DNA of 64,000 nucleotides, taken from contig OX597818.1 in the NCBI GenBank assembly GCA_951406725.2, forward strand, positions 147,374,001 through 147,438,000, written 5' to 3'. Below are positions 18,758-18,898 of the stretch, piece by piece. Numbering within the stretch: position 1 is the first letter of the stretch; every line of letters begins with the position of its first letter. Under the pieces are notes generated by a model. That model made no database searches. It was given only the letters and a program-made list of their open reading frames with translations, and was not told the origin of the DNA. The stretch is from Octopus vulgaris (taxonomy: Eukaryota). A program made the position numbers and the translations under genes.

Positions 18758-18898
18758 TTGCTGCCCTCACCTGCTACTATTGCTCCAATCGAGTGGAGAA
18801 GGCCTGTGGCGGCAACTTTCAATCATATTTATTCAAAAGTTCAACGTGCGATTCCACATATTCAAAATGCGCTCTGCAGAAAAACCCACCCCTGAAAG
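18758..18898 (+). CDS. Internal exon of a host Ly6/uPAR three-finger (quiver/sleepless-like) secreted or GPI-anchored protein gene
   Basis: Polypyrimidine tract with TAG acceptor ending at 18757, and AAG|GTAAGT donor at 18899. Length 141 bp, phase 1-1, open reading: AALTCYYCSNRVEKACGGNFQSYLFKSSTCDSTYSKCALQKNPPLK (LxCYxC start, five Cys). Confidence 0.78.

What the first reader, a model, noticed from the sequence alone, without database searches (positions are those of the whole stretch)
18758..18898. Hidden host exon of a Ly6/three-finger (quiver/sleepless-like) gene, missed by the ORF track
Seen: strong splice signals, a symmetrical phase-1 exon, an A-A-L-T-C-Y-Y-C start and five spaced cysteines. 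Known: Ly6/uPAR genes have a signal-peptide exon, then a phase-1 intron, then an LxCYxC exon. Family members modulate nicotinic receptors and K+ channels, and some are toxins. Inference: the only host coding sequence in the window may belong to a neural or venom-related three-finger protein with very large TE-filled introns. I could not locate the signal-peptide or C-terminal CN exons in this window.
Basis: partly seen in the sequence, partly recalled or inferred. Interest (0 to 1): 0.7.

Follow-up and report, generated by a model that had tools for sequence, protein, structure and literature searches.

The report
Broken duplicate of octopus Ly6 gene
The exon is real, but it belongs to a partial, broken copy of an already catalogued octopus cell-surface three-finger (quiver/Ly6-type) gene whose intact version lies on another chromosome, and the copy was likely made by a recent duplication near a chromosome end, so the finding is ordinary.

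Summary
The 141-nt exon at 18758-18898 is real. It is exon 2 of a three-exon octopus QVR/Ly6 gene already in RefSeq/UniProt (XP_029657813.1, CAI9737306.1; Pfam QVR 43.8 bits, cut-off 27.3). The window does not hold the working gene. An identical exon lies on contig C20 with the signal-peptide exon, a complete exon 3 and a hydrophobic GPI-type tail. The window (end of C5) carries a copy of about 84 kb of C20, 1.65% diverged, starting inside intron 1. It has no exon 1. Spliced contigs from 4 of 4 studies laid continue into sequence found only on C20. One of three genomic-type runs laid carries the frameshifted form, so the lesion is no assembly error. Best reading: an unprocessed pseudogene fragment in a chromosome-end duplication mosaic (0.75). 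Main rival: a misplaced null haplotype of C20 (0.17). The parent gene is conserved in octopods, snails and bivalves and is predicted to be GPI-anchored; nothing supports a venom role.

The parts
18758..18898 (+). Exon 2 of the QVR/Ly6 gene (first half of the LU domain, Cys 1-5), identical to C20:9513345-9513485
   Evidence: spliced contigs end at its edges
18733..18757 (+). Intact pyrimidine tract and AG acceptor of exon 2
   Evidence: same as C20
18899..18904 (+). GTAAGT donor of exon 2
23728..23910 (+). Broken remnant of exon 3: first 36 nt missing, 2-nt deletion behind 23817, premature TAA at 23829-23831; CN motif and hydrophobic tail out of frame; original stop 23908-23910
23713..23727 (+). 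Deletion joint in a (CA)n(TA)n microsatellite; 62 nt of intron with the exon-3 acceptor and 36 nt of exon are absent relative to C20
23911..24617 (+). Sequence downstream of the stop, about 99% identical to C20 (presumed 3' UTR, end not mapped)
6493..64000 (+). Duplicated block matching C20:9,505,452-9,541,409, with extra inserted and repeated DNA in the window copy; runs on past the window to about C5:147,483,000 / C20:9,589,000
4900..6590 (.). Degenerate (ATT)n array in which the 5' edge of the duplicated block falls (start coordinate approximate)
17381..18710 (+). Decayed multi-copy retroelement-like fragment (DUF7083) ending 48 nt before exon 2; shared with C20

Best explanation
The exon is exon 2 of an octopus QVR/Ly6 gene, and in this window it sits in a partial copy that has no signal-peptide exon and a broken last exon, most likely a dead pseudogene fragment made by a recent duplication from C20 to the end of C5. 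Shown: the anatomy, the lesions, the intact parent on C20, and splicing of the parent's three exons. Inferred: about 84 kb of C20 was copied from a point inside intron 1, at an (ATT)n microsatellite, into a chromosome-end region that also shares 95-99% identical segments with C11, C20, C26 and C27. Born without promoter and first exon, the copy was free of selection and then lost the exon-3 acceptor and took a frameshift. Exon 2 is unchanged probably because the copy is young. The parent protein is predicted to be a GPI-anchored, single-domain three-finger surface protein. That it tunes ion channels or receptors like Drosophila SLEEPLESS is by analogy only.
For: Exon 1 matches only C20 and is absent from 100 kb of C5 flank plus the window. 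The 5' part of exon 3 matches only C20. Window exon 3 lacks 62+36 nt and has a 2-nt deletion. Colinear match to C20 with 184 substitutions in 11,134 aligned bases, 1.65%; at that rate 0 changes in 141 nt has probability 0.095, so exon 2 shows no sign of constraint. No N gap in C5:147,104,001-147,548,901; no colinear match of the 276 kb upstream to the C20 stretch fetched; two upstream probes gave no long second match in the genome. A downstream probe has 4 other copies at 95-98%, two of them within 250 kb of a contig end. 4 of 4 RNA-type contigs continue 3' into the C20-only exon-3 start, and 3 of 4 show the exon-1 end 5'. Run X17 has a 508-nt contig with the window's frameshifted form (0 gaps) and 2 further differences, so the broken form exists outside this assembly.
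Against: Divergence of 1.65% is close to the 1.22% heterozygosity reported for O. vulgaris (PMC10700109, passage seen). C20 has a scaffold gap about 8 kb past the end of the block. X15 and X16 show only the intact form and X17 only the broken form at this place, and X15 shares two window letters (24432, 24537) on an intact-type background; alleles would give this pattern too, though contigs drop variants. No read-depth or long-read test of copy number was possible. Exon 2 is identical in both copies, so its reads cannot be assigned.
Confidence: 0.75

Rival explanations
1. The block is the second haplotype of the C20 locus, a real loss-of-function allele, that the assembler joined to the end of C5 through the (ATT)n array.
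For: Divergence near heterozygosity; C20 gap just beyond the block; each of three genomic-type runs shows one form only at exon 3; shared letters between window and X15.
Against: 445 kb without a gap, with single-copy sequence upstream and a multi-chromosome mosaic downstream. The window copy spans 57.5 kb against 36 kb on C20, with repeated and inverted pieces. A null allele with two separate lesions in a gene conserved across molluscs would have to occur in two unrelated samples.
Confidence: 0.17
2. The duplicated exon 2, with both splice sites intact, is spliced into some C5 transcript and gives a truncated or chimeric product or a regulatory RNA.
For: Acceptor, donor and all 141 nt are unchanged.
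Against: All loose ends at the exon edges in 4 of 4 runs match the parent's exons 1 and 3. Zero changes is compatible with neutral drift (P = 0.095). Half an LU domain with five Cys would likely not fold (inference).
Confidence: 0.05
3. One reading: the window holds a working neural or venom three-finger gene whose other exons lie outside the window.
For: The exon is real and of the QVR family.
Against: Exon 1 exists only on C20; exon 3 is inside the window and broken; the parent has a membrane-anchor-type tail and bivalve and snail relatives.
Confidence: 0.03

Closest known systems
Octopus LOC115232082 (XP_029657813.1, O. sinensis) and CAI9737306.1 (O. vulgaris; UniRef name 'Protein sleepless')
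   Same: Exon 2 peptide identical; the three C20 exons translate to the CAI9737306.1 sequence.
   Different: The window copy lacks exon 1 and has a broken exon 3, so it cannot encode this protein.
Drosophila QUIVER/SLEEPLESS and Pfam QVR (PF17064)
   Same: Parent passes the Pfam cut-off (43.8 vs 27.3 bits); Atlas first hits are 'Protein sleepless' clusters (feature score 0.94, TM 0.74); signal peptide-like N-terminus, 10 Cys, CN motif, hydrophobic tail.
   Different: Orthology not tested. Other loci (C5 about 50 Mb, C2) score higher against QVR exon by exon, and this gene's exons were not among the 4 matches. It belongs to a subfamily of 60 representatives; the 8 named hits looked up among 10 are snails and bivalves. 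Shaker and nAChR regulation is shown for the fly protein only (PMC4735452, abstract seen).
Vertebrate Ly6/uPAR genes (Lynx1, CD59, PSCA, GPIHBP1)
   Same: Three exons with signal peptide in the first and anchor signal in the third, ten Cys, LxCxxC and terminal CN (PMC4839075, passages seen). Fold hits are LU and TGF-beta receptor ectodomains.
   Different: No sequence match to a solved structure; CFCDTDYCN rather than CCxxxxCN; longer domain (about 92 aa).
Unprocessed (duplicated) pseudogene fragments in subtelomeric segmental duplications (own knowledge of human and other genomes)
   Same: Introns and flanks retained, 5' truncation, disabling lesions, inter-chromosomal mosaic near a contig end.
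   Different: True telomere proximity is not shown: no TTAGGG array in the last 111 kb of C5.

Membership tests
QVR / Ly6-uPAR (parent gene on C20) | Pfam PF17064 above curated cut-off | tested here: met
   43.8 bits vs 27.3 for the full protein; the exon alone scores 18.8, below cut-off
QVR / Ly6-uPAR (parent gene on C20) | Ten Cys with LxCxxC start and CN end | tested here: met
   C26, 29, 37, 51, 58, 77, 92, 107, 109, 114 and N115; 8 Cys invariant and 2 nearly so in 31 sequences
QVR / Ly6-uPAR (parent gene on C20) | Three-finger fold | tested here: met
   Predicted only: AlphaFold2 pLDDT 86, six strands; Atlas TM 0.74 to a QVR cluster. PDB Foldseek hits are LU or TGF-beta receptor domains but none reaches E 0.001, best 0.0038
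QVR / Ly6-uPAR (parent gene on C20) | Signal peptide and GPI-anchor signal | tested here: inconclusive
   Hydrophobic N-terminus and 25-residue tail after CN; such a tail in 9 of 10 sequences checked. Hydropathy only, no SignalP or GPI predictor available
QVR / Ly6-uPAR (window copy) | Three exons giving a complete LU protein | tested here: not met
   No exon 1 on C5; exon 3 lacks acceptor and 36 nt and is frameshifted
Drosophila quiver/sleepless orthologues | One-to-one orthology with fly qvr | not tested
   No tree built; other loci in this genome fit the QVR profile better
Drosophila quiver/sleepless orthologues | Regulates Shaker channels and nicotinic receptors | not testable with these tools
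   Needs expression and electrophysiology
Secreted three-finger venom toxins | Secreted LU domain without anchor tail, restricted to a venomous lineage | tested here: not met
   Hydrophobic tail present; relatives in bivalves Potamilus, Solemya, Saccostrea. One Atlas cluster among the top three is named U-scoloptoxin-like, an automatic label within the QVR family
Unprocessed duplicated pseudogene | Introns and flanks copied with the exons | tested here: met
Unprocessed duplicated pseudogene | Disabling lesions | tested here: met
   frameshift also in run X17
Unprocessed duplicated pseudogene | A separate locus from the parent (paralogue, not allele) | tested here: inconclusive
   Assembly says separate and gap-free; read depth and long reads not available
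Unprocessed duplicated pseudogene | No functional transcript | tested here: inconclusive
   No window-specific joint in 5 RNA-type runs, but contigs cannot show absence

The most novel reading that the evidence does not exclude
Common octopuses carry a polymorphic null of a mollusc-wide, GPI-anchored sleepless-like gene (the broken form is a segregating allele, seen in two samples), or the duplicated exon 2 has been recruited into a new C5 transcript. The first would give a natural knockout for testing Ly6 control of excitability and sleep in a cephalopod.
Probability: 0.12. Interest if true: 0.5.

Novelty: new member of a known kind. Interest (0 to 1): 0.16.

Why it matters
Little as biology: the parent gene is catalogued and LU proteins are numerous in molluscs. 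Practical value: the identical exon 2 on C5 splits read mapping and variant or RNA-editing calls for the C20 gene, and the locus is a concrete example of a young inter-chromosomal duplication mosaic at an octopus chromosome end. If the broken form is an allele instead, it is a natural knockout of an unstudied, conserved molluscan Ly6 gene.

Tried and rejected
Pfam on the exon alone stayed below cut-off. No RNA holder listed: one search has no run on record as RNA; the 'RNA?' labels are guesses, and I rely on the contigs skipping the introns. A sequence search of the PDB gave nothing meaningful (2 hits at E about 0.9). Foldseek gave no hit at E 0.001. The acceptor + LxCxxC pattern is not rare by chance. 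No telomere array at the C5 end. A genome search with the QVR profile missed this gene's exons. X3's contig stops at 23810, short of the frameshift, so it does not tell the copies apart there. Earlier findings by place and by sequence: none. Papers: 'quiver'+'sleepless'+'octopus' gave 1 paper, on ants; Ly6/cephalopod/three-finger listed 20 of 263, none on a cephalopod Ly6 gene by title. Supplements of PMC13719153 were not opened and may list this protein. Venom reading rejected. No complex prediction and no family tree were run.

Full report
Observation. The peptide hits Pfam QVR weakly (E 0.0034, 18.8 bits, below cut-off). A loose acceptor + LxCxxC pattern occurs once in the window and 9 times in 40 shuffled windows, so the motif alone would not have been proof.

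Identity. A protein search gave 2 hits among 3 candidates: O. sinensis LOC115232082 (100%) and an Argonauta protein (65%), both with PF17064. The cluster also holds O. vulgaris CAI9737306.1, 140 aa, named 'Protein sleepless' in UniRef. All three pass the QVR cut-off (42-44 bits vs 27.3). A whole-library search found 60 representatives at E <= 0.001; of 10 looked up, 8 carry names and all are gastropods or bivalves. In 31 aligned sequences eight Cys and the terminal Asn are invariant and the other two Cys nearly so. The AlphaFold2 model (pLDDT 86, pTM 0.68) has six strands between an N- and a C-terminal helix. Its PDB neighbours are uPAR, C4.4A, GPIHBP1 and TGF-beta receptor ectodomains, none at E <= 0.001; the Atlas ranks QVR clusters first. 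A hydrophobic tail follows CN in 9 of 10 sequences checked. The parent is thus an ordinary molluscan LU protein, predicted to be GPI-anchored. Molluscs have many: a table row in PMC13719153 reads 2086 (83) for 25 genomes (passages seen, column heads not seen).

The window is not the gene. The own-genome search found the exon twice, in the window (C5, 111 kb from the contig end) and on C20. Only C20 has all three exons: 9461689-9461749, 9513345-9513485 and from 9519664, with GT-AG introns of 51,595 and 6,178 nt, translating to CAI9737306.1. This fits the typical three-exon Ly6 layout (PMC4839075, passages seen). Exon 1 has one match in the genome, on C20, and none in the window or 100 kb of its flanks. 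The window holds a remnant of exon 3 at 23728-23910. Relative to C20 it lacks 62 nt of intron with the acceptor and the first 36 nt of the exon, the joint lying in a (CA)n(TA)n run. It also has a 2-nt deletion behind 23817 that brings a stop at 23829-23831, before the CN motif and the tail.

Extent and age. From window 6493 on, the sequence follows C20 from 9,505,452, and the match runs past the window to about C20:9,589,000. The 5' edge lies in an (ATT)n array, 44 kb inside intron 1. Six colinear blocks differ at 184 of 11,134 bases (1.65%); at that rate an unchanged 141-nt exon has probability 0.095, so no constraint is shown. The window copy is longer (57.5 vs 36 kb) through inserted, repeated and inverted pieces. 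C5 has no N gap over its last 445 kb. Two upstream probes found no long second copy (40 candidates scored each, while a like search did find C20). A downstream probe matched C27, C20 (73.3 Mb), C26 and C11 at 95-98%; the C11 and C20 copies lie 34 and 245 kb from their contig ends, the C26 and C27 copies do not. The matches extend over 4-9 kb. The end of C5 is therefore a mosaic of young duplicated segments, some of which may be mobile elements.

Reads. I laid 4 of the 14 full RNA-type holders (4 studies) on exon 2. Each has a contig covering the exon only. All 4 continue 3' with the start of exon 3, and 3 of 4 show the end of exon 1 at the 5' side. Both flanking sequences exist once in the genome, on C20. 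Splicing is therefore shown for the parent, not for the window. On the exon-3 region I laid one more RNA-type run and 3 of the 6 runs of unstated kind, which cover the introns like genomic DNA. X15 and X16 carry the intact form. X17 has a 508-nt contig with the window's form (no gap, window letter at 23916, only 36 letters before 23738 against 128 in the others) plus two letters found in neither the window nor C20. So the broken form exists in an independent sample. Against my reading: each run shows only one form, X15 shares two window letters on an intact background, O. vulgaris heterozygosity is given as 1.22% (PMC10700109, passage seen), and C20 has a gap 8 kb after the block. An allele misplaced by the assembler is not excluded.

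Mechanism. Shown: anatomy, lesions, parent, splicing of the parent. Inferred: a copy of C20 DNA starting in intron 1 was placed at the end of C5, probably through the microsatellite; it never had promoter or signal exon; the two lesions came afterwards under no selection. The parent likely works as a surface-anchored three-finger modulator. Fly SLEEPLESS raises Shaker and lowers nAChR activity (PMC4735452, abstract seen), but orthology was not tested, and other loci fit the QVR profile better. My two paper searches found no study of this gene in cephalopods.

Verdict. Good spotting of a real exon, right family, wrong status: a broken duplicate of a known gene. Interest 0.16.

Noticed in passing
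G000:C5:147,458,900-147,520,000 (L035-L041): Segments of 4-9 kb shared at 95-99% with C11, C20 (two places), C26 and C27, and repeated within C5; a young duplication mosaic or a low-copy mobile element.
   Followed up: partly
P0002 (XP_029657813.1) C-terminus: The O. sinensis RefSeq isoform ends eight residues after CN, without the hydrophobic tail that 9 of 10 relatives have. It ends at a T run; runs X15 and X16 show no deletion there. Possibly an error in that reference.
   Followed up: partly
G000:C5:49,957,042-50,083,940 and C2:165,061,548: A small cluster of other QVR-family exons, scoring better against Pfam QVR than this gene; better candidates for sleepless relatives.
   Followed up: no
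window 17381-18710: A decayed multi-copy retroelement-like fragment (DUF7083) reaches to 48 nt before the exon-2 start in both copies, and the parent exon is still spliced correctly.
   Followed up: partly
window 900-4800 (- strand): Non-LTR retrotransposon (RVT_1 and zf-RVT) flanked by long (TAA/ATT)n arrays; copies on C20 also end in TAA runs. Resembles microsatellite-targeting R4/Dong elements (recalled, not tested).
   Followed up: partly
window 11500-15860: Tandem array of an about 21-nt unit giving open frames on both strands; about 4 kb longer in the window than on C20.
   Followed up: no
window 36781-39240: Reverse-transcriptase element (RVT_1) with a following ORF that looks like a GIY-YIG endonuclease, Penelope-like (recalled, not tested); present in the window, not matched on C20.
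   Followed up: no
L002 (C20:9,514,659-9,515,949): A 1.3 kb insertion present on C20 but not in the window, in intron 2.
   Followed up: no
L003, L004 (C15:2251 and C15:64,562,790): Two weak matches to the exon with the same query range and identity on C15, one at the contig start; possibly another duplicated Ly6-like exon.
   Followed up: no
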